64,000 bases of DNA from a virus (Duplodnaviria > Caudoviricetes): the IMG/VR virus record IMGVR_UViG_3300029305_001452, positions 75,973 through 139,972 of that record; one strand, 5' to 3'. Every line of letters starts with the position of its first letter. The first letter of the stretch is position 1. Made by a program: the position numbers and the translations under genes. The notes beneath the pieces are model-generated. The model had not been told where the DNA came from, made no database searches, and saw only the letters and a list, made by a program, of their open reading frames with translations. This document shows positions 5,877 through 25,962 of the stretch, one piece after another.

Positions 5877-5971
5877 CCACGTATAGCTCAATTGGTAGAG
5901 CGACGGATTTATGCTCCGTTTGGCACCAGATTAGTGCGAGGTTCTGGGTTCGACTCCTAGTACGTGGACCA
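5877..5971 (+). tRNA. tRNA-Ile(UAU) with long variable arm
   Basis: Acceptor CCACGTA/TACGTGG; anticodon arm ACGGA-TTTATGC-TCCGT; variable hairpin GCAC...GTGC; TTCGA; ACCA. Confidence 0.8.
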
Positions 5972-5974
5972 AAT

Positions 5975-6051
5975 GGTTCCATAGTTCAGTTGGTTAGAAC
6001 CCCCGGCTCATAACCGGGTTGTCCTCTGTTCGAGTCAGAGTGGAACCACCA
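5975..6051 (+). tRNA. tRNA(CAU), Ile2/lysidine type or Met
   Basis: Cloverleaf; CCCGG-CTCATAA-CCGGG resembles Bacillota Ile2. Confidence 0.85.
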
Positions 6052-6056
6052 AATAT

Positions 6057-6132
6057 GATCCGTTAGCTCAGTTGGTAGAGCACCAGACTTTTAATCTGGG
6101 TGTCTTGGGTTCAAATCCCAAACGGGTCACCA
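6057..6132 (+). tRNA. tRNA-Lys(UUU)
   Basis: CCAGA-CTTTTAA-TCTGG; CCA end. Confidence 0.95.
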
Positions 6133-6138
6133 TGATAT

Positions 6139-6214
6139 GCCTCCTTAGCTCAGTTGGTAGAGCAACGGACTGTTAATCCGTGTGTCGCAGGTTCGAGACC
6201 TGCAGGAGGCGCCA
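6139..6214 (+). tRNA. tRNA-Asn(GUU)
   Basis: ACGGA-CTGTTAA-TCCGT; GCCA end. Confidence 0.95.
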
Positions 6215-6290
6215 ACTCCGTTCGATTAATCGGAAAAGTCAACATCGTCCGAAGATGTAGAAATCGGATCATAACCGATACGGAGTTCCA
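6215..6290 (+). tRNA. Atypical tRNA-like RNA, anticodon CCG (Arg?)
   Basis: 76 nt; ACTCCGT/ACGGAGT acceptor; ACATC-GTCCGAA-GATGT; ATCGG-ATCATAA-CCGAT; TCCA end; non-consensus loops. Confidence 0.6.
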
Positions 6291-6452
6291 GTTAAGTTAG
6301 TTATCTGCGCAGATATGACACCTCCCAGGTTATGGCGGCTGACCTTATTTAAAAAATAAAAGCCACTCAATAGACGGTGATAATGCTTGCTAGCGGCAAA
6401 ACAACCGTCTAACATATCTTCCAGTAGCTCAGTTGAATAGAGCAACGGTCTT

Positions 6453-7070
6453 TGAAGTAAAAGGAGCTTTCTATGTGGAATATTCAAAAGATTGTGAGCA
6501 AAGGTGATTATAATTACGCTGTTGTACCAGAACATCCAAATCGTACAAAAAATAACTATGTTTTGGAACATAGAGTCGTAATGGAAAATTACCTTGGTAG
6601 ACTTTTGAATAATGATGAGGTTGTGCATCATATAAACGGCAATAAAAAAGATAACAGAATTGAAAATTTAGAGGTATTTTCTAACGAAGAACATGCAAAA
6701 CTACATGGTGCTAGAGTTGGTCATAAAATGGTAATGCTAAAATGTCCTTGGTGTCAGAAAGTATTTTCAATTGAAAAAAGACAATCTTTTTTAGATAAGC
6801 ATAATAAATATCAATGCAACTGCTGTTCTAATGAATGTCGTGGTAAATTATATAGCAGCATACAACATCATGGATTAACCGTAGATTTGCAGGAAGCTAT
6901 ATCGGAAAATCTCTTAGCGGAATATATTGAATATATTGACGAAGACAATTCCGAGGAAACCCTCTCACAATGGGGATCCGTAGAGACTATACGCTTCCCA
7001 TCTGAAATGATGATGATATAGTCCAGACTACAACATATAAATTATGGCTATGGAAACATAGAGTAGTAAG
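6453..7070 (+). mobile_element. Group I intron in the tRNA-Arg anticodon
   Basis: Follows an exon U and ends in G; core elements GTAGAGACTATA (R) and GATATAGTCC (S) form P7. Confidence 0.88.
6473..7021 (+). CDS. Intron-encoded HNH homing endonuclease
   Basis: EHRVVME...VHHINGNKKDNRIENL motif plus Zn finger; AAGGAG RBS. Confidence 0.9.
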   Translation: MWNIQKIVSKGDYNYAVVPEHPNRTKNNYVLEHRVVMENYLGRLLNNDEVVHHINGNKKDNRIENLEVFSNEEHAKLHGARVGHKMVMLKCPWCQKVFSIEKRQSFLDKHNKYQCNCCSNECRGKLYSSIQHHGLTVDLQEAISENLLAEYIEYIDEDNSEETLSQWGSVETIRFPSEMMMI

Positions 7071-7116
7071 CTAAACCGTAGGTCACAGGTTTGAGTCCTG
7101 TCTGGAAGACCAATAT

Positions 7117-7194
7117 GGCCCAGTAGACAAGTTGGATACAGTCACCAGCCTTTCACGCTGGAATTCGAGGGTTCAAATCCCTCCTGGGTCACCA
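7117..7194 (+). tRNA. tRNA-Glu(UUC)
   Basis: CCAGC-CTTTCAC-GCTGG; CCA end. Confidence 0.92.
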
Positions 7195-7199
7195 AATAT

Positions 7200-7276
7200 G
7201 GCTCCGTAGTTCAGATGGTTAGAATGCCAGCCTGTCACGCTGGAGGTCGTCGGTTCGAAACCGATCGGAGTCGCCA
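7200..7276 (+). tRNA. tRNA-Asp(GUC)
   Basis: CCAGC-CTGTCAC-GCTGG; GCCA end. Confidence 0.95.
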
Positions 7277-7293
7277 AGTAAGTGATACTTAAA

Positions 7294-7384
7294 TACTGCC
7301 TCAAAGGATTAGCCTTTCAGGAGACGGTGCCTGCACCGACTCTGTTTACTGGTGTAGATGCCGAAGTACAAGGTGCAGTAGCCA
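7294..7384 (+). ncRNA. Cloverleaf-like RNA with GCCA end
   Basis: TACTGC/GCAGTA closing stem around three hairpins. Confidence 0.45.
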
Positions 7385-7394
7385 GCAATAATAT

Positions 7395-7470
7395 GCGGTA
7401 GTAGTTCAATTGGTGGAGCCCCAGATTTCCAATCTGGCTGCTGCGAGTTCGAGTCTCGTCTACCGCTCCA
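7395..7470 (+). tRNA. tRNA-Gly(UCC)
   Basis: CCAGA-TTTCCAA-TCTGG; TCCA end. Confidence 0.92.
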
Positions 7471-7647
7471 GTAGAGAGAGTCTACTTAAAAGGTCAGCAA
7501 CAAGATTGTCTGACGCAACGTTGAAACAAATAGTCCGGGCCAACTTCGGTTATTTGTGGAGTTCATTGAGGGTTTGATGCCATCCACAAGTTGGCTAGAC
7601 AAAAGTCGAAAGAAAAGCATCAGTCTACGAAACGGAGGATATTGCCT

Positions 7648-7695
7648 ATGATTGAATGCGTAAAATCCAGCAAGGAGGAAACTCCTCCAGCATAG
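7648..7695 (+). CDS. Putative 15-aa micropeptide MIECVKSSKEETPPA
   Basis: GGAGG RBS; paralog at 10864. Confidence 0.4.
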   Translation: MIECVKSSKEETPPA

Positions 7696-7737
7696 TAGCG
7701 GGTTTCGCCGTTCCCACCAAAAACGGCGAGTTAATAT

Positions 7738-7826
7738 GGCGGGTTAATTCGGACGGCTCCGAACCTTGTCTTGAAAACAAGTGGTACCAGGGATGGTATG
7801 GGGATCGACACCTCAGCCCGTCGCCA
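7738..7826 (+). tRNA. 8/4 allo-tRNA-like tRNA-Ser(UGA)
   Basis: 8-bp acceptor; 6-bp D stem with 4-nt loop; CTTGT-CTTGAAA-ACAAG; long V arm; 4-bp T stem; GCCA. Confidence 0.8.
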
Positions 7827-7831
7827 TATAT

Positions 7832-7921
7832 GGAGAGTTACCCAAGTGGTCAAGGGGGCAGTTTGCTAAACTGCTAGGGGTTTAAAAGCCCGCGAGAGTT
7901 CGACCCTCTCACTCTCCGCCA
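7832..7921 (+). tRNA. tRNA-Ser(GCU)
   Basis: GCAGT-TTGCTAA-ACTGC; long V arm; GCCA. Confidence 0.92.
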
Positions 7922-8035
7922 TACCCCGTACATACCTGGGGTTGCATCGTGTATAAGTCTCGCATAACACTACTTATCTTGTGATGAGTTGACTGAATAA
8001 AGGTGTTATTTATCTTAAAGAAAGGAAAATATAAA

Positions 8036-8275
8036 ATGAGACTAAAGAGCATTAATGAAGTTAATGATTTTCTAGCAGTAGTTGACTCTTGCAACGGTGA
8101 TGTTTGGCTAGAATCTCAGTATGGTGATAGATTTAATCTAAAGTCAAAACTGTCACAGTATGTTGCTATTGGCGCACTACTAAGTGATAGTCAGGAAGAA
8201 CTAGAATTGTTCTGCTCTAAGGAAGACGAAGATAAGTTCTTTTCTTATTTTAGAGAGCATCCTGGTGTGAATTAA
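8036..8275 (+). CDS. HPr-fold-like small protein
   Basis: F..VVDSCNGDVWL...GDRFNLKS pattern of HPr-like proteins; canonical His15 absent. Confidence 0.6.
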   Translation: MRLKSINEVNDFLAVVDSCNGDVWLESQYGDRFNLKSKLSQYVAIGALLSDSQEELELFCSKEDEDKFFSYFREHPGVN

Positions 8276-8289
8276 GTAACACCATATAT

Positions 8290-8364
8290 AGCCCCGTGGC
8301 CAAGCGGCAAGGCGAAGGACTTTGACTCCTTTATTCACTGGTTCGAATCCAGTCGGGGCTGCCA
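8290..8364 (+). tRNA. tRNA-Gln(UUG)
   Basis: AAGGA-CTTTGAC-TCCTT; GCCA. Confidence 0.93.
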
Positions 8365-8368
8365 TAAC

Positions 8369-8442
8369 GGAGGATGTGGTGTAATGGTAGCACGCGAGTC
8401 TTGGGGTCTTGAAGCGCAGTTCGAATCTGACATCTTCCACCA
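8369..8442 (+). tRNA. tRNA-Pro(UGG), atypical (8-bp acceptor, short T stem)
   Basis: GGAGGATG/CATCTTCC; loop CTTGGGG; TTCGAAT; ACCA. Confidence 0.7.
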
Positions 8443-8465
8443 CAAAAAATAATTTGTCAAACCTC

Positions 8466-8494
8466 TTGACAAATCGCAAAATATATGATATAAT
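8466..8494 (+). promoter_or_regulatory. SigmaA promoter
   Basis: TTGACA-N17-TATAAT with TG. Confidence 0.85.
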
Positions 8495-8553
8495 CCAGAC
8501 ACTTAAAAGAAAACAACACAAAATTAATGGATGAATGAACGAGGTGATGAAGC

Positions 8554-9357
8554 TTGATGGAATATTATACAAGCTCATCTGAACAAATTCGACAAGATAC
8601 ATGTGATGAGGTAGAATATGTAGAAATTAAAAATCCATTTGGTTTTATTTATATTACAACTAATTTGATAAATGGTAAAAGATATATTGGACAAAGAAAG
8701 TTTTCTGATGGGTGGACAACATATCTTGGAAGTGGAAAGAGATTTAAAACGGCTCTGAAAAAATATGGTAGAAAAAATTTTGTTAGATTAATAGTTGATA
8801 TAGGCTATTCTCGTGAAGAACTAAATGATAAAGAAATTAGTATAATAAAATTTTTAAATGCCGTTGATAGCAGAAATTTTTATAATATATCAGAAGGCGG
8901 AGAGATAAAAGGCAAAAGTGGAAAAGATGCATACTGGTATAATAAAAAAATTCCACAAGAAAGCATAGAAAAGGCAAATTTAAAAAGATATAAACCTGTT
9001 TACCAGTTCGACTTAAATGGTAATTTTATTAAGCGTTATGAGTCCGTAACACATGCTGCAAAAGAAAATAATCTTAGCAAACAAGGAATAAGTAAGTCGT
9101 GTAATGATGATAGTAAAACATGCGGTGGTTATTTTTGGTCATACAGTGACAATATTGGCTTAAGAAAATATGATCCTACCAAAAATCATAAACCAGATGA
9201 AGTATATCAATATGATTATGATGGTAAGAAATTAATTAATATTTATATATCTGCAAAAGAGGCAAGCGAAAAAACTGGAATAGCTACATACAATATATAT
9301 GCTTGTCTTTCTGGTAAGAGAAAACATGCTGGAAATTTTACTTGGAAAAAGGAGTAA
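8554..9357 (+). CDS. Free-standing GIY-YIG homing endonuclease with two NUMOD1-like repeats
   Basis: GFIYITTNLINGKRYIG, YLGSG; two VYQ[FY]DxxG repeats. Confidence 0.9.
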   Translation: MMEYYTSSSEQIRQDTCDEVEYVEIKNPFGFIYITTNLINGKRYIGQRKFSDGWTTYLGSGKRFKTALKKYGRKNFVRLIVDIGYSREELNDKEISIIKFLNAVDSRNFYNISEGGEIKGKSGKDAYWYNKKIPQESIEKANLKRYKPVYQFDLNGNFIKRYESVTHAAKENNLSKQGISKSCNDDSKTCGGYFWSYSDNIGLRKYDPTKNHKPDEVYQYDYDGKKLINIYISAKEASEKTGIATYNIYACLSGKRKHAGNFTWKKE

Positions 9358-9364
9358 TTAAATT

Positions 9365-10021
9365 ATGAGTACAAAAGAAACATGCACTATCCACAAGGCA
9401 CTTTCCGAACTGAAGACTATTGATGACCGTATCATCAAGGCCATCCGTAGTAACACCTATGTACTAGCTGTTAAGCATTCAGCAGAGAAGATTAACGGTG
9501 TGAAGGTTGACACCTGCAAGGAGAATATGAAGAGTGGCTATCAGAAGGTTACCGACCTAATAGCTCGTCGTGTTGCAATGAAGAGAGCAGTTGTTCTTTC
9601 CAATGCAACCACTAAGGTTAAGGTTGGCAATAACGAATACACCGTGGCCGAGGCAATTGAGATGAAGAATCACGGTATGGAGTTCAAGAAGACTCTACTA
9701 CAGTATCTATATACTGCATATGGTTCTGCTCAGAACGAGTTCAATAAGAACAACGATGAGGCACTTGAAAAGAAGGCAGAGCAGTATGTTCTCGCAGTGA
9801 TTGCTGCACAGCCCAAGGACTCTAAGATGTCTGTTGATAGCGAAGCAATGAAGGCACTTCGTAAGACATACATCGAGAACAACACTTATGATTTGCTTGA
9901 TCCTCTGAATGTAGCTAAGATCATGGAAGAACTTGATTCTGAAATCAACGAGTTTGAAGCTGAAATTGATGCAGCACTGTCTGTTTCCAACGCACTAACT
10001 GTGATTGAGTTCGAGTATTAA
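9365..10021 (+). CDS. Coiled-coil protein (DIP1984/DUF6847-like by pattern)
   Basis: AAGGAG RBS; IHKALSELK...RI and EIDAALSVSNA.T.I; family assignment from memory. Confidence 0.7.
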   Translation: MSTKETCTIHKALSELKTIDDRIIKAIRSNTYVLAVKHSAEKINGVKVDTCKENMKSGYQKVTDLIARRVAMKRAVVLSNATTKVKVGNNEYTVAEAIEMKNHGMEFKKTLLQYLYTAYGSAQNEFNKNNDEALEKKAEQYVLAVIAAQPKDSKMSVDSEAMKALRKTYIENNTYDLLDPLNVAKIMEELDSEINEFEAEIDAALSVSNALTVIEFEY

Positions 10022-10028
10022 TTAATCT

Positions 10029-10446
10029 GCTTGCTGCTTTTCGAAAACCTTAAACGACTACTTATCTCTTCTTTTTTAATCATTTAGAGTGATATTAATA
10101 AGTTAAATAAAATGATTACTAAACAACTTTATGTACTTGAAATACATAAAACTCTTTGCCTAAGGGTTATAAATAATAAAAGATATGATAAATTAAGATG
10201 ATCATATAATTATTAATTAATTGTAACTGTAAAGCTTAAAGTTAAAAATTCAAGACTTAAGGTTCAAGGATCAAAGTTTTATTTTGGTCAAAGGTCGTTT
10301 ATTAAAGTAGTAAAGAGGGCTAAGAAGTTATAAATAATTGAATATTATGCGGAGCCCACAAAGTTTTACAAAATCCACGGTTAAAGGTTTGGGTGAGTGG
10401 TCAAGGCCCAAAGGTGAGCCTCGTGGCTGGAAAGTAGCAAGCACCA
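10029..10446 (+). ncRNA. ~418-nt structured RNA with tRNA-like ACCA end and heptamer array
   Basis: 14-bp terminal stem GCTTGCTGCTTTTC/GGAAAGTAGCAAGC plus ACCA; several internal helices. Confidence 0.65.
10230..10278 (+). repeat. Seven tandem degenerate 7-mers
   Basis: TAAAGCT TAAAGTT AAAAATT CAAGACT TAAGGTT CAAGGAT CAAAGTT. Confidence 0.75.
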
Positions 10447-10577
10447 GATAAAAATAATAAATGTTGAGTAGTGAGTATAAAGCCATATTGAGTATGCCAC
10501 AACGTACAAACTCAAGAAAACAGTGAAGAGCTGGATAACCTTCTGTACAAAGGTTGAATTGAGAGTGGCAGAGTTTA

Positions 10578-10653
10578 GTCCAAAGATGGTGTAAGGGTAG
10601 CACACAGAAGGGTAGGCCGGCGAGGTACTGTTCGAATCAGTTGAGGGCGACCA
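10578..10653 (+). pseudogene. Degenerate tRNA-like element
   Basis: D arm GTGT..GCAC, T arm ACTG-TTCGAAT-CAGT and ACCA are present; no anticodon stem; poor acceptor. Confidence 0.55.
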
Positions 10654-10863
10654 AAAAGAAAACTCTTAAAAGTACAGAGATATGAAAAAACGATGTAACA
10701 AATGAGAACTTGGTCGGTAGAGATTAATGATTAAAGATAGACCGTTGGTGAGTCATGCGCAGACAAATCCAACCATCGTTCCCATAGATGAAATTTCTAT
10801 GGCTCAATGAATTACAAATAACATACGAAAGTGTGTTAAATAATCCAAAGGAGGACTTTGCCT

Positions 10864-10911
10864 ATGATTGCATTCGCTAAATCCACCTCGGAGGATACTC
10901 CAATCGGCTGA
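10864..10911 (+). CDS. Putative 15-aa micropeptide MIAFAKSTSEDTPIG
   Basis: AAAGGAGG RBS; paralog at 7648. Confidence 0.4.
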   Translation: MIAFAKSTSEDTPIG

Positions 10912-10950
10912 TTGGGTTCCTGGGGCAAGAACTGAAACTGCCCCTCATAT

Positions 10951-11028
10951 TGCGGAGTAGACAAGAGGTCTAAGTCGCCAGCCTCATAAGCTGGAAATCG
11001 TTGGTTCGAATCCAACCTCACGCAACCA
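10951..11028 (+). tRNA. tRNA-Met(CAU), initiator-like, bulged acceptor
   Basis: CCAGC-CTCATAA-GCTGG; ACCA. Confidence 0.8.
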
Positions 11029-11031
11029 CAT

Positions 11032-11121
11032 GCCGCAGTGGTGGAATAGGTAGACACCCGGGACTTAAAATCCCGTGAGGCTAAACCCCTCGTACCGGTT
11101 CGACCCCGGTCTGCGGCACCA
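11032..11121 (+). tRNA. tRNA-Leu(UAA)
   Basis: CGGGA-CTTAAAA-TCCCG; long V arm; ACCA. Confidence 0.95.
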
Positions 11122-11175
11122 CCTGAACAAATGGCATCGTGTTATGTGTGGCTGACCAACCTTAAGGTCATATAT

Positions 11176-11251
11176 GCCCCAGTAGCTCAACTGGCAGAGT
11201 ACTTGATTTGTAATCAAGATGTTGCAGGTTCAACTCCTGTCTGGGGCTCCA
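11176..11251 (+). tRNA. tRNA-Thr(UGU)
   Basis: CTTGA-TTTGTAA-TCAAG; TCCA. Confidence 0.93.
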
Positions 11252-24032: not shown

Positions 24033-25156
24033 TGTACAAGATTGAATTGAGAGATTTCGTTTTATCTCATGATAATTGGGAAGAATTACTTACAACCGAA
24101 CCTTATTATCTAAAGATTTCTCGTGATCGTGGATATATTATGTTTAAGTATAACCAGTTGTTTTCTGATTTTAACATTCCTCTAGTACGTGAGGCACGTG
24201 GTATTATTTTTAGAGAACATGACTGGAAGTGTGTTTGTGATCCGTTTCGAAAATTCGGCAATTGGGGAGAGTCATATTGCCCAGAAATTAACTGGGAAAC
24301 TGCATCTGTTCAGCAAAAAGTTGATGGATCTCTTATTAAATTTTGGTGTGATGATGGCTGGCATATTTCTACCAATGGATCTATTGATGCGTTTAAGGCA
24401 GAACTGAATAATGTAAAATATCAAAATTTTGGACAGCTTGTAATTGATGCAATCCGCAGAGTATTTCCAAATTATCACGATTTCTTTAATATGCTTAATC
24501 CTTACTGTACTTATATGTTTGAACTTGTATCTCCATATAATAGAGTGGTTATTCCTTATGAGAGAGCAAAGTTGTATTTTCTAGGTGTAAGAAATCTTGA
24601 TACTGGAGTAGAATACATGCCAGAGGAATACGAAATTTCTCAATATTTTCAAATCCCTAAGCGTTATGCGTTATCTACTCTAGAAGATGTACAAAAAGCA
24701 GCAAACGCACTCCCGTGGGATCAAGAAGGATATGTTGTATGCGATTCTAATTTTAATCGAGTTAAGATTAAAAGTCCTGCTTATGTAAATGCTCATTATG
24801 TTAGAAACAATAATATTATTACTGTAGAACGACTTGTGCAAATCGTACTTAGTGGGGAGAAAAAAGAATTTTTAATCTATGCTTCAGAGTACACTAATGA
24901 ATTACTAGACATAGAAAGTGCTATGCGTAAGATTGCTAGTAATTCCGTTGAACAAATGAAAATTCTATTTGGGGCATCATATGAATTTGCAAATCGTAAA
25001 GAATATGCTGATGTAATAGCTAAGTATCCAACGTATATGAAAGAGTTTCTTTTTAATTGTTTTGACGATAGAATTTTTTGGGACTATGCAAGAAGTTGGA
25101 ACATAGATAGATGGGTTAAAGCAATTAATGAATTTAAGGCTGGTGATAATAAATGA
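24032..25156 (+). CDS. RNA ligase, T4 Rnl1-like
   Basis: EARG, KF.N, QKVDGSLI (KxDG), FEL, EGYVV, RVKIK. Confidence 0.88.
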   Translation: MYKIELRDFVLSHDNWEELLTTEPYYLKISRDRGYIMFKYNQLFSDFNIPLVREARGIIFREHDWKCVCDPFRKFGNWGESYCPEINWETASVQQKVDGSLIKFWCDDGWHISTNGSIDAFKAELNNVKYQNFGQLVIDAIRRVFPNYHDFFNMLNPYCTYMFELVSPYNRVVIPYERAKLYFLGVRNLDTGVEYMPEEYEISQYFQIPKRYALSTLEDVQKAANALPWDQEGYVVCDSNFNRVKIKSPAYVNAHYVRNNNIITVERLVQIVLSGEKKEFLIYASEYTNELLDIESAMRKIASNSVEQMKILFGASYEFANRKEYADVIAKYPTYMKEFLFNCFDDRIFWDYARSWNIDRWVKAINEFKAGDNK

Positions 25157-25962
25157 ACTTTCATTCAGATGAATGGATTATGGATCGTGTTAGAGAGCAT
25201 TATAATGAAGCTCTTGAGCACTTCCCGGAAGATAGAATTGTAGGTATTTTTTACCAGGGGTCTGGCAACTACGGCCTAGACTACGAAGGTTCTGACGTAG
25301 ATACTAAGCTAATTGTTACACCTACATTTAAAGATATTGCAATGAACCATAAAGCTGTAAGCACAACTCATATCAGAGAGAATGAGGAACATATCGATTT
25401 TAAGGATATTAGACTTTATATCCAGACATTCAGAAAGCAGAACTTGAATTTCTTGGAAATTCTTTTTACTAAATATGCAATCATCAATTCTATGTATAAA
25501 GCTGAATGGGATAGGCTAGTGGAAGCTCGTGAAGCAATTGCACATTACTCTCCTGTACAAGCCATTAAGTCTATGAAGGGTATTGCTATGGAAAAGTACC
25601 ATGCAATGGAACATCATTACCCCGCACGAATGGCATGGATTGAAAAGTTTTCTTACGACCCTAAACAACTGCATCATCTGATACGAGTGCGAGAGTATAT
25701 TGAAAGATATATTGACGGAGAATCTTATGAAGATTGCTTAATTTCTACACAGCCAGGATATCTTCAGAGAGTAAAGGTTGGTTTTCACAATTTAGACGAT
25801 GCTCGTATTATTGCTAATAATTCTATTGAGCGTATTAATAGTATGTGCAACGAATATTTGGAAACTTGTTCTAAAGAAGTTGATAAAGATGTTGATGCTC
25901 TACTGGACGATGTACAGTACAACATTATGAAAATTGCTATTCAGAAAGAGATTGGTGATTAA
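25153..25962 (+). CDS. Pol-beta-superfamily nucleotidyltransferase
   Basis: QGSGNYGL....SDVD; NFLEILF. Confidence 0.8.
   Translation: MNFHSDEWIMDRVREHYNEALEHFPEDRIVGIFYQGSGNYGLDYEGSDVDTKLIVTPTFKDIAMNHKAVSTTHIRENEEHIDFKDIRLYIQTFRKQNLNFLEILFTKYAIINSMYKAEWDRLVEAREAIAHYSPVQAIKSMKGIAMEKYHAMEHHYPARMAWIEKFSYDPKQLHHLIRVREYIERYIDGESYEDCLISTQPGYLQRVKVGFHNLDDARIIANNSIERINSMCNEYLETCSKEVDKDVDALLDDVQYNIMKIAIQKEIGD

What the first reader, a model, noticed from the sequence alone, without database searches (positions are those of the whole stretch)
6418..7112. HNH-encoding group I intron in the anticodon of a phage tRNA-Arg(UCU)
Seen: two tRNA halves flank a 618-nt insert that follows U34 and ends in G. The insert has P7 elements AGACTA/TAGTC and an HNH ORF that runs into the ribozyme core. 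Established: bacterial tRNA group I introns are known mainly in Leu(UAA), fMet/Ile(CAU) and Arg(CCU), and most lack an ORF. Inference: an unusual, probably still mobile intron at a little-described site. It could home into intron-free Arg(UCU) genes of related phages or the host. The P1 pairing is weak, so the exact 5' splice site rests on restoring the 7-nt loop.
Basis: partly seen in the sequence, partly recalled or inferred. Interest (0 to 1): 0.7.

Follow-up and report, generated by a model that had tools for sequence, protein, structure and literature searches.

The report
Mobile self-splicing intron splitting phage tRNA-Arg
The only AGA-reading arginine tRNA gene of this large phage is split by a genuine group I intron that carries its own HNH homing nuclease; the kind is known, but its compact layout, with RNA and protein signals sharing the same bases, is neat.

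Summary
Window 6418-7112 is a tRNA-Arg(UCU) gene split after U34 by a 618-nt insert (6453-7070) that ends in G. Joining the halves gives a clean 77-nt tRNA.

The insert is a real group I intron. Rfam scores it 35.4 bits, below the cut-off of 50, but relatives reach 50.0. I found 15 more split tRNA genes with this intron type in metagenomes and one MAG. On ten of them my P1-P9 model pairs 92.6% of cells, against 35-44% for slid controls, and 27 pairs change on both sides.

The 182-aa ORF (6473-7021) is an HNH_3 nuclease. Its catalytic residues are invariant, pN/pS is 0.17 against a 92%-identical relative, and its best structural match is I-HmuI.

The layout is tight. The internal guide GGAG is also the ORF's Shine-Dalgarno. 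The start codon lies in P2. The last third of the ORF is encoded by P2'-P8, and the stop codon TAG is part of P7'.

Related introns at the same site are ORF-less, carry a decayed HNH, or carry an unrelated PD-(D/E)XK gene in P6.

The site class (Arg.3Ug) is already in Williams 2020, and this scan met the same family before on other DNA. This is a new member of a known kind. Splicing and cleavage remain untested.

The parts
6418..6452 (+). 5' exon of tRNA-Arg(UCU): acceptor, D arm, anticodon stem ACGGT, and loop C32 U33 U34
   Evidence: In-silico splice gives ARAGORN tRNA-Arg(tct), 77 nt. The anticodon stem covaries across relatives (helix 1).
6453..7070 (+). Group I intron, 618 nt, IC3-like architecture, ending in omega-G at 7070
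   Evidence: Intron_gpI 35.4 bits, E 3.6e-7. On A2 the structure pairs 92.6% of cells, 27 pairs change on both sides, and 0 of 500 shuffles reach this.
7071..7112 (+). 3' exon: CUAA, anticodon stem ACCGT, variable loop, T arm, acceptor, encoded CCA
6450..6466 (+). P1: C6450-U6453 with G6463-G6466, U6452.G6464 at the splice site. The guide AAGGAG (6461-6466) is also the Shine-Dalgarno, 6 nt before the ATG.
   Evidence: The pairs are kept in the HNH-type relatives and covary in L148 and L149. The spacing of 5-6 nt to the start codon is kept in all HNH-type members.
6473..7021 (+). HNH homing-endonuclease ORF, 182 aa: I-HmuI-like N-terminal part (1-82), four-Cys ribbon (91-122), helical part to about 155, disordered tail 156-182
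   Evidence: Pfam HNH_3 50.7 bits. pN/pS 0.17 against L151. Invariant H52 H53 N61 N65 H74 H78 and Cys. Model pLDDT 82. I-HmuI 1u3e Z 7.3.
6470..6475 (+). P2 5' strand UCUAUG, which contains the start codon 6473-6475
   Evidence: Pairs with 6880-6885. Three of the six pairs change on both sides across relatives (helix 3). Strands are listed.
6880..6885 (+). P2 3' strand CGUAGA (also codons 136-138). It closes a 404-nt loop that holds most of the ORF.
6892..6998 (+). P3 (6892-6897 with 6993-6998), enclosing P4-P6 and the 5' strand of P7
   Evidence: GGAAGC/GCTTCC in the window, against GTTGGC/GCCAAC, CATCGC/GCGATG and TCACCC/GGGTGA in relatives.
6902..6979 (+). P4-P6 domain: P4 6902-07/6949-54, P5 6912-14/6943-45, P5a 6921-27/6931-37, P6 6955-56/6978-79, P6a 6960-62/6973-75
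   Evidence: P5a and P6a are the weakest helices (about 70% of cells paired).
6983..7024 (+). P7 (G6983, bulged A6984, GACUA 6985-89 with UAGUC 7019-23 and C7024), holding P3', P8 (6999-7002/7009-12) and J8/7 AUGAUA. The ORF's stop TAG 7019-7021 lies in P7'.
   Evidence: GACUA/UAGUC in the window, against GACUG/CAGUC (L003) and GACUU/AAGUC (L148, L149, L157). In P8, three of the four pairs change on both sides.
7027..7067 (+). P9 (7027-31/7063-67) with inner hairpin P9a (7048-52/7057-61) capped by a GAAA tetraloop
   Evidence: ACUAC/GUAGU in the window, against ACCAC/GUGGU, CCCAC/GUGGG and CCAGC/GCUGG in relatives. All 5 pairs of P9a change on both sides.

Best explanation
This is a group I intron of the bacterial tRNA type (IC3-like). 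It sits between U34 and C35 of the phage's only tRNA-Arg(UCU) gene and carries an I-HmuI-like HNH homing endonuclease.

Inferred working:
- The tRNA array is transcribed.
- The intron folds: P1 is CUU|U with GGAG, the P3-P7 pseudoknot forms, and P4-P6, P8 and P9 (GAAA loop) complete the core.
- The intron splices itself out with guanosine and joins CUU to CUAA, giving the tRNA for AGA, the phage's commonest Arg codon.
- The ORF occupies the P2 loop and then reads on through P2', P3, P4-P6, P7, P3' and P8, stopping at a TAG that is part of P7'.
- Its Shine-Dalgarno is the internal guide sequence and its AUG lies in P2. A ribosome and the folded ribozyme therefore cannot use the same molecule at once. 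Most likely the nuclease is made from unfolded precursor or from the excised intron, where the guide is no longer held by the 5' exon.
- The nuclease then cuts or nicks intron-less tRNA-Arg(UCU) genes of co-infecting phages, and repair copies the intron in, with flanking exon sequence.

Shown here: intron anatomy, covariation, ORF conservation and the variety of ORF states. Inferred: splicing, the translation switch, cleavage and homing.
For: Exons and junction:
- The joined exons give a clean tRNA-Arg(UCU).
- The junction 24-mer is common as an intron-less allele.

Intron:
- Rfam Intron_gpI scores 35.4 bits, E 3.6e-7. Relatives score 50.0, 49.7 and 45.2 bits.
- The same intron type is found in tRNA-Arg(UCU) at the same site in 14 other loci, plus L149, which has an Arg-type 3' exon but a tRNA-Leu(UAA)-like 5' half.
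- The structure count on A2 gives 92.6% paired, against 35-44% when slid. 27 pairs change on both sides, and 0 of 500 shuffles match.

ORF:
- HNH_3 scores above the Pfam cut-off.
- pN/pS is 0.17. The synonymous rate drops from 0.34 to 0.07 where the ORF overlaps the ribozyme.
- Catalytic His/Asn residues and four Cys are invariant in 31 homologues.
- I-HmuI is the best structural match: Z 7.3, 2.9 A, 76 residues.
- Seven of eight sampled homologues at 55-84% identity sit in the same split tRNA.

Signs of the homing cycle:
- ORF-less forms: L003 and L148.
- An internally deleted HNH: L164.
- An unrelated PDDEXK_5 gene in P6: L150.
- A free-standing copy: L159.

Need for the tRNA:
- There is no second tRNA-Arg(UCU) in the 140-kb record, and AGA is 56% of Arg codons.
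- A19 and U56 covary in the window's tRNA.
Against: No splicing, translation or cleavage was observed; all of it is sequence inference.
- The window's own Rfam score is under the gathering cut-off.
- P10 is only 2 bp here (C7071:G6463, U7072:A6462).
- P5a and P6a are poorly supported, at about 70% of cells paired.
- No near-isogenic phage with an empty site was found, so recent mobility of this very copy is not shown.
- The last 27 residues of the protein are predicted disordered. They may be mere read-through, so the length of the overlap need not be adaptive.
Confidence: 0.82

Rival explanations
1. The intron is real, but this copy no longer splices, so the tRNA-Arg(UCU) gene is a dead gene carried along with the selfish element.
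For: The Rfam score is below the gathering cut-off. P10 is weak, and P5a and P6a are weakly supported. One relative, L151, has a mismatched acceptor stem, so damaged copies exist.
Against: All core helices are intact in the window. Differences from the 91%-identical L151 within helices are compensatory (P8 A:U to G:C) or wobble. The tRNA stems are perfect and the tertiary pair 19:56 covaries. It is the only tRNA for the phage's main Arg codon.
Confidence: 0.08
2. The intron splices, but the HNH ORF is a decaying remnant that is no longer translated or active, so the element is immobile.
For: The Shine-Dalgarno and the AUG are both sequestered in ribozyme helices. The C-terminal 27 residues are disordered. 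Decayed and ORF-less relatives exist.
Against: pN/pS is 0.17 overall and 0.10 in the HNH part. Catalytic and Cys residues are invariant in 31 homologues. The frame is full-length, with a canonical AAGGAG-N6-ATG start.
Confidence: 0.12
3. The nuclease serves mainly as a weapon against co-infecting phages or the host, cutting their intron-less tRNA-Arg(UCU) genes while the intron protects the phage's own copy. Spreading the intron is secondary.
For: The target 24-mer is shared by more than 120 unrelated viral contigs, so many competitors would be sensitive. The phage carries further intron and free-standing nucleases.
Against: Nothing here separates this from ordinary homing; the two are not exclusive. 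No host sequence was identified.
Confidence: 0.2

Closest known systems
Bacterial tRNA group I introns of setting 'Arg.3Ug' (Williams 2020, bioRxiv 10.1101/2020.01.27.920355; seed sequence Rba190.Arg.3Ug)
   Same: Same tRNA setting (Arg, position 3, after U34). Same P1 (CUU|C ... GGAG). Same J6/7-P7 motif GUAGAGACUA, and AGUCCAG in P7'.
   Different: That seed is a short, ORF-less intron from a bacterial assembly. Here the intron sits in a phage tRNA array and carries an HNH gene in P2 that overlaps the core. The paper's table is an image, so I could not read how many Arg.3Ug cases it counts or whether any carry ORFs.
Cyanobacterial and plastid tRNA-Leu(UAA) intron ('Leu.3Ug', IC3)
   Same: Same position in the anticodon loop and the same 5' exon triplet CUU, hence the same guide GAG. 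Compact core without P7.1/P7.2. One relative (L149) even has a tRNA-Leu(UAA)-like 5' half.
   Different: Different tRNA. The classical Leu intron has no ORF.
Synechocystis PCC 6803 tRNA-fMet intron with I-Ssp6803I (named from my own knowledge; the tRNA-fMet intron is cited in PMC8450103)
   Same: A bacterial-type tRNA intron that carries a homing endonuclease. The relative L150 carries a Pfam PDDEXK_5 nuclease; from my own knowledge this is the family of I-Ssp6803I, which I did not check.
   Different: The window's ORF is an HNH, not PD-(D/E)XK. It lies in P2 and overlaps the core. The tRNA and the insertion site also differ (fMet.2Ug).
I-HmuI / I-HmuII introns of Bacillus phages SPO1 and SP82 (structure 1U3E)
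   Same: A phage group I intron encoding an HNH_3-type nuclease. The N-terminal 82 residues superpose on I-HmuI (Z 7.3, rmsd 2.9 A, 76 residues).
   Different: Those introns interrupt a protein gene (DNA polymerase) and, from my own knowledge, belong to another intron subgroup. C-terminal to the HNH module the window's protein has a four-Cys ribbon, for which no I-HmuI match was found. Sequence search against the PDB finds nothing.

Membership tests
Group I intron (Rfam RF00028 Intron_gpI) | Score at or above the curated gathering threshold (50 bits) | tested here: not met
   The window scores 35.4 bits, E 3.6e-7. Homologous introns at the same site score 50.0 (L158), 49.7 (L160) and 45.2 (L163). 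The Rfam seed holds no bacterial sequences, according to Williams 2020.
Group I intron (Rfam RF00028 Intron_gpI) | U at -1 forming a U.G wobble in P1, and G as the last intron base | tested here: met
   U6452.G6464 and omega-G 7070. All ten aligned relatives have it (the tool counts 9 of 10 because of one misaligned row). All 16 introns end in G.
Group I intron (Rfam RF00028 Intron_gpI) | Conserved core: P3-P7 pseudoknot, P4-P6 domain, P8, and P7 with a bulged A and a G:C pair at the guanosine site | tested here: met
   92.6% of cells pair, against 35-44% when slid. 27 pairs change on both sides, and 0 of 500 shuffles match. G-A(bulge)-GACUN with NAGUC-C is present in all members.
Group I intron (Rfam RF00028 Intron_gpI) | Self-splicing with guanosine | not testable with these tools
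   Needs in vitro transcription and splicing.
Bacterial tRNA introns, subgroup IC3, setting Arg.3Ug | Insertion between loop positions 3 and 4 (after U34) of a tRNA-Arg, restoring a 7-nt loop CUUCUAA | tested here: met
   The setting is named in the seed alignment of Williams 2020.
Bacterial tRNA introns, subgroup IC3, setting Arg.3Ug | IC3 architecture: P2 present, no P5abc, no P7.1/P7.2, L9 GNRA loop | tested here: inconclusive
   The helices I mapped fit: P3' abuts P8, and L9a is GAAA. No subgroup classifier or IC3 reference model was on hand. The assignment rests on likeness to the seed rows read.
HNH_3 / I-HmuI-like homing endonucleases | Pfam PF13392 above cut-off, with the His/Asn catalytic residues present | tested here: met
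   50.7 bits against a cut-off of 24.8. H52, H53, N61, N65, H74 and H78 are invariant in 31 homologues.
HNH_3 / I-HmuI-like homing endonucleases | Fold of the N-terminal DNA-binding sheet plus the beta-beta-alpha-metal module | tested here: met
   1u3e is the top hit: Z 7.3, rmsd 2.9 A, 76 residues, 21% identity. The next is I-PpoI at Z 5.2. Foldseek alone is weak, at E 0.046.
HNH_3 / I-HmuI-like homing endonucleases | Site-specific nicking or cleavage of the intron-less allele | not testable with these tools
   Needs protein expression and a cleavage assay.

The most novel reading that the evidence does not exclude
The shared use of bases is a working switch rather than an accident. The internal guide sequence is the ribosome-binding site and the start codon is locked in P2. 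The nuclease would then be translated only from RNA that has not folded, or from the excised intron, whose guide has been freed by loss of the 5' exon. This would tie nuclease production to splicing of an essential tRNA. The anticodon loop CUUCUAA dictates a guide UAGGAG-like sequence, and this may be why a nuclease gene could settle exactly there.
Probability: 0.35. Interest if true: 0.6.

Novelty: new member of a known kind. Interest (0 to 1): 0.42.

Why it matters
The case shows three things:
- The classical bacterial tRNA introns also live in the tRNA arrays of large phages, and tRNA finders miss them. ARAGORN reports no tRNA-Arg(UCU) here, so the phage's tRNA set and codon coverage are under-called.
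- The family offers a natural series for studying how homing nucleases invade and leave an intron: empty, HNH in P2, decayed HNH, PD-(D/E)XK in P6, and free-standing HNH.
- It gives a compact model of about 140 bases that serve both as ribozyme core and as coding sequence, with translation signals built from P1 and P2.

None of this changes what is known about group I introns in kind.

Tried and rejected
- ARAGORN with intron search on the unspliced region found nothing.
- An alternative junction, CTTT|...C|TAA, gives tRNA-Lys(UUU). I rejected it: the intron would then end in C, a tRNA-Lys(UUU) already exists at 6057-6132, and relatives and intron-less alleles fix the junction at CTT|CTAA.
- My first candidate for P2' (TTATATAG, 6848-6855) was dropped. 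CGTAGA at 6880-6885 lies where the relatives have their P2', and it covaries.
- AGAGAC at 6982-6987 could pair with the 5' exon, but it is J6/7-P7, so I rejected it as a guide.
- Megablast against phage records found no match. The distant blastn search found only short HNH-domain hits.
- The PDB sequence search found nothing significant.
- A scan of GTDB representative genomes with the 3' junction pattern gave 0 hits. A profile scan with the HNH alignment found only N-terminal-domain relatives, plus one true intron in an Anaerolineae MAG, L164.
- I looked for a near-isogenic intron-less phage and found none. BLAST of the spliced window region against 120 intron-less loci matched only the tRNA itself. 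An A19-type empty-site pattern gave 0 hits.
- I looked for a complete copy of the hybrid L149 in viral contigs and got 0 hits.
- Global MAFFT alignment of the window against L003 was uninformative in the middle.
- Table 1 of Williams 2020 is an image, so the count of Arg.3Ug introns could not be read.

Full report
**What is there**

The window is bases 75973-139972 of a 139,972-bp IMG/VR virus record. ARAGORN finds 14 tRNA genes, all in an array at window 5877-11251, and none for Arg(UCU).

Between tRNA-Arg(CCG) and tRNA-Glu lie two tRNA halves:
- 6418-6452 ends in ...ACGGTCTT.
- 7071-7112 begins with CTAAACCGT and ends in CCA.
- They are separated by 618 nt, 6453-7070, reading TGAAG...GTAAG.

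Joined in silico, the halves give a 77-nt tRNA-Arg(UCU) with perfect stems. Shifting the junction by one base gives tRNA-Lys(UUU). That would make the intron end in C, and relatives contradict it. The joined 24-mer AGCAACGGTCTTCTAAACCGTAGG occurs uninterrupted in more than 120 viral contigs.

**It is a group I intron**

Rfam's Intron_gpI matches 6820-7047 at 35.4 bits, E 3.6e-7, below the gathering score of 50. Comparison decides the matter.

A complete 160-kb phage (L003) has a 458-nt ORF-less intron at the same site. A metagenome scan with the 3' junction and look-ups of ORF homologues gave 15 more members:
- L151, L153 and L156-L158, L160-L163 are HNH-type.
- L150 carries a different ORF.
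- L148/L155 (193 nt) and L149 (201 nt) are short.
- L164 comes from an Anaerolineae MAG.

Three of them score 50.0, 49.7 and 45.2 bits with Rfam.

I mapped P1-P9 on the window and projected the model onto a MAFFT alignment of ten HNH-type introns (A2). The count was:
- 92.6% of 609 cells pair, against 35-44% when the partners are slid.
- 27 of 62 pairs change on both sides.
- No shuffle out of 500 reaches the observed values.

P2, P3, P8, P9 and P9a carry most of the covariation. P7 occurs as GACUA/UAGUC, GACUG/CAGUC and GACUU/AAGUC. P5a and P6a are weak. Some counts are lowered by MAFFT misplacing single bases (L157 in P3', L163 in P1).

**Splice sites**

P1 is C6450-U6453 with G6463-G6466, and U6452.G6464 lies at the cleavage site.
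- The pairing is constant in the HNH-type members.
- It covaries in the short ones: CCU|C with GGGG in L148, and CUU|A with UGAG in L149.
- Every intron ends in G.

P10 is 3 bp (CUA with UAG) in many members but only 2 bp in the window. The core motifs (AAAUUCGGGG, GGUGUAGAGACU, AGUCCAGACCAC) and the P1 match the IC3 tRNA introns in the seed alignment of Williams 2020. That alignment includes 'Rba190.Arg.3Ug'. The site class is therefore already catalogued for bacteria.

**The ORF**

The ORF 6473-7021 encodes 182 aa with Pfam HNH_3 (50.7 bits).

Conservation:
- Its homologue in L151 is 92% identical, and pN/pS is 0.17 (0.10 in the HNH part).
- The synonymous rate falls from 0.34 to 0.07 over the stretch that also encodes ribozyme helices. 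This is the mark of a double constraint.
- In 31 homologues the HNH histidines and asparagines and four cysteines are invariant.

Structure:
- An AlphaFold model has pLDDT 82, with residues 156-182 disordered.
- I-HmuI (1u3e) is the best solved match: Z 7.3, 2.9 A over 76 residues. Foldseek alone gives only E 0.046.

Spread:
- The protein search returned 738 proteins at E <= 1e-10, and the best 120 are at least 54% identical.
- Of eight homologues fetched with their DNA, seven lie in a tRNA-Arg(UCU) split at the same point. Their anticodon stems differ and covary.
- The eighth (L159) is free-standing in a tRNA array.

**Layout**

- The guide AAGGAG (6461-6466) lies 6 nt before the ATG. This spacing is 5-6 nt in all HNH-type members.
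- The start codon lies in the 5' strand of P2 (UCUAUG 6470-6475 with CGUAGA 6880-6885). P2 covaries strongly and uses ATG, GTG or TTG in different members.
- The 404-nt P2 loop holds codons 2-135.
- Codons 136-182 are encoded by P2', P3, P4-P6, P7, P3' and P8.
- The stop TAG (7019-7021) is part of P7'.
- In about half of the homologues a stop in the P6a loop ends the protein near residue 165.
- The conserved protein motifs AISEN and DNSEE coincide with P3-P4 and P4'-P6. Their conservation may therefore be owed to the RNA.

I infer that ribosome loading and ribozyme folding exclude each other on one molecule. I also infer that the excised intron, with its guide freed, is a likely messenger. Neither inference was tested.

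**Signs of a homing cycle**

At one and the same site the family shows five ORF states:
- no ORF (L003, L148);
- an intact HNH in P2;
- an internally deleted HNH (L164);
- an unrelated PDDEXK_5 nuclease in P6 (L150, E 1e-32);
- a free-standing HNH (L159).

L151 looks like a recombinant:
- It is 91% identical to the window from the upstream tRNA through the intron, to about 28 nt into the 3' exon.
- After that point it follows an L156-like sequence.
- The result is a mismatched acceptor stem and an A19/C56 clash.

This is what a co-conversion tract would leave. A chimeric assembly of this 1.3-kb contig cannot be excluded.

**Need for the tRNA**

The record has no second tRNA-Arg(UCU), and AGA makes up 56% of Arg codons in 96 long ORFs. 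The window's tRNA keeps the tertiary pair 19:56 as A:U, where the relatives have G:C. Both facts speak for a working gene.

**Standing**

- Earlier notes of this scan describe the same family on other DNA: e1-5665742 in a rumen phage, e1-5773150 on the guide doubling as ribosome-binding site, and e1-5632255.
- I found no paper on phage tRNA-Arg introns in the searchable library.
- Verdict: a real and probably active mobile intron. It is a new member of a known kind, with a neat overlap of RNA and protein signals.

Noticed in passing
L151 (whole 1314-bp contig): This close relative is a mosaic. It is window-like from the upstream tRNA-Arg(CCG) to about 28 nt into the 3' exon, and L156-like after that. 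The result is two acceptor-stem mismatches and A19 opposite C56. It is either a co-conversion footprint of homing or an assembly chimera.
   Followed up: partly
L149:1360-1612: A 201-nt intron of the same family has a tRNA-Leu(UAA)-like 5' half (...CAAGACUU|) but an Arg-type 3' exon (CUAAACCGUAGGU), and the contig ends there. It could mark a jump between tRNAs that share C32-U33-U34, or it could be a misassembly.
   Followed up: partly
L148:7120-7400 (same element in L155): A 193-nt ORF-less member sits in a tRNA-Arg(UCU) whose loop reads CCU|CUAA. That puts C at the nearly universal U33, and the guide is changed to GGGG to match.
   Followed up: no
window 6291-6417: A 127-nt spacer lies between tRNA-Arg(CCG) and the split tRNA. 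It is about 90% conserved in L151 and holds a hairpin, GACGGT...ACCGTC. It has no Rfam match.
   Followed up: no
window 8554-9357: A free-standing homing-endonuclease-like ORF (PHROG 314, E 2e-28) lies just after tRNA-Pro in the same tRNA array.
   Followed up: no
G000:C1:6752-7071 (-) and 25143-25348 (-), outside the window: The same phage record has two more Intron_gpI matches, at 74.9 and 22.3 bits.
   Followed up: no
window 7516-7625: A drum RNA (RF02958, 69 bits) lies inside the tRNA array. Others in this scan have already followed it up.
   Followed up: no
L159:520-1100: A 73%-identical HNH homologue is free-standing between tRNA genes, with no ribozyme around it and its own AAGGAG-N6-ATG start.
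   Followed up: no
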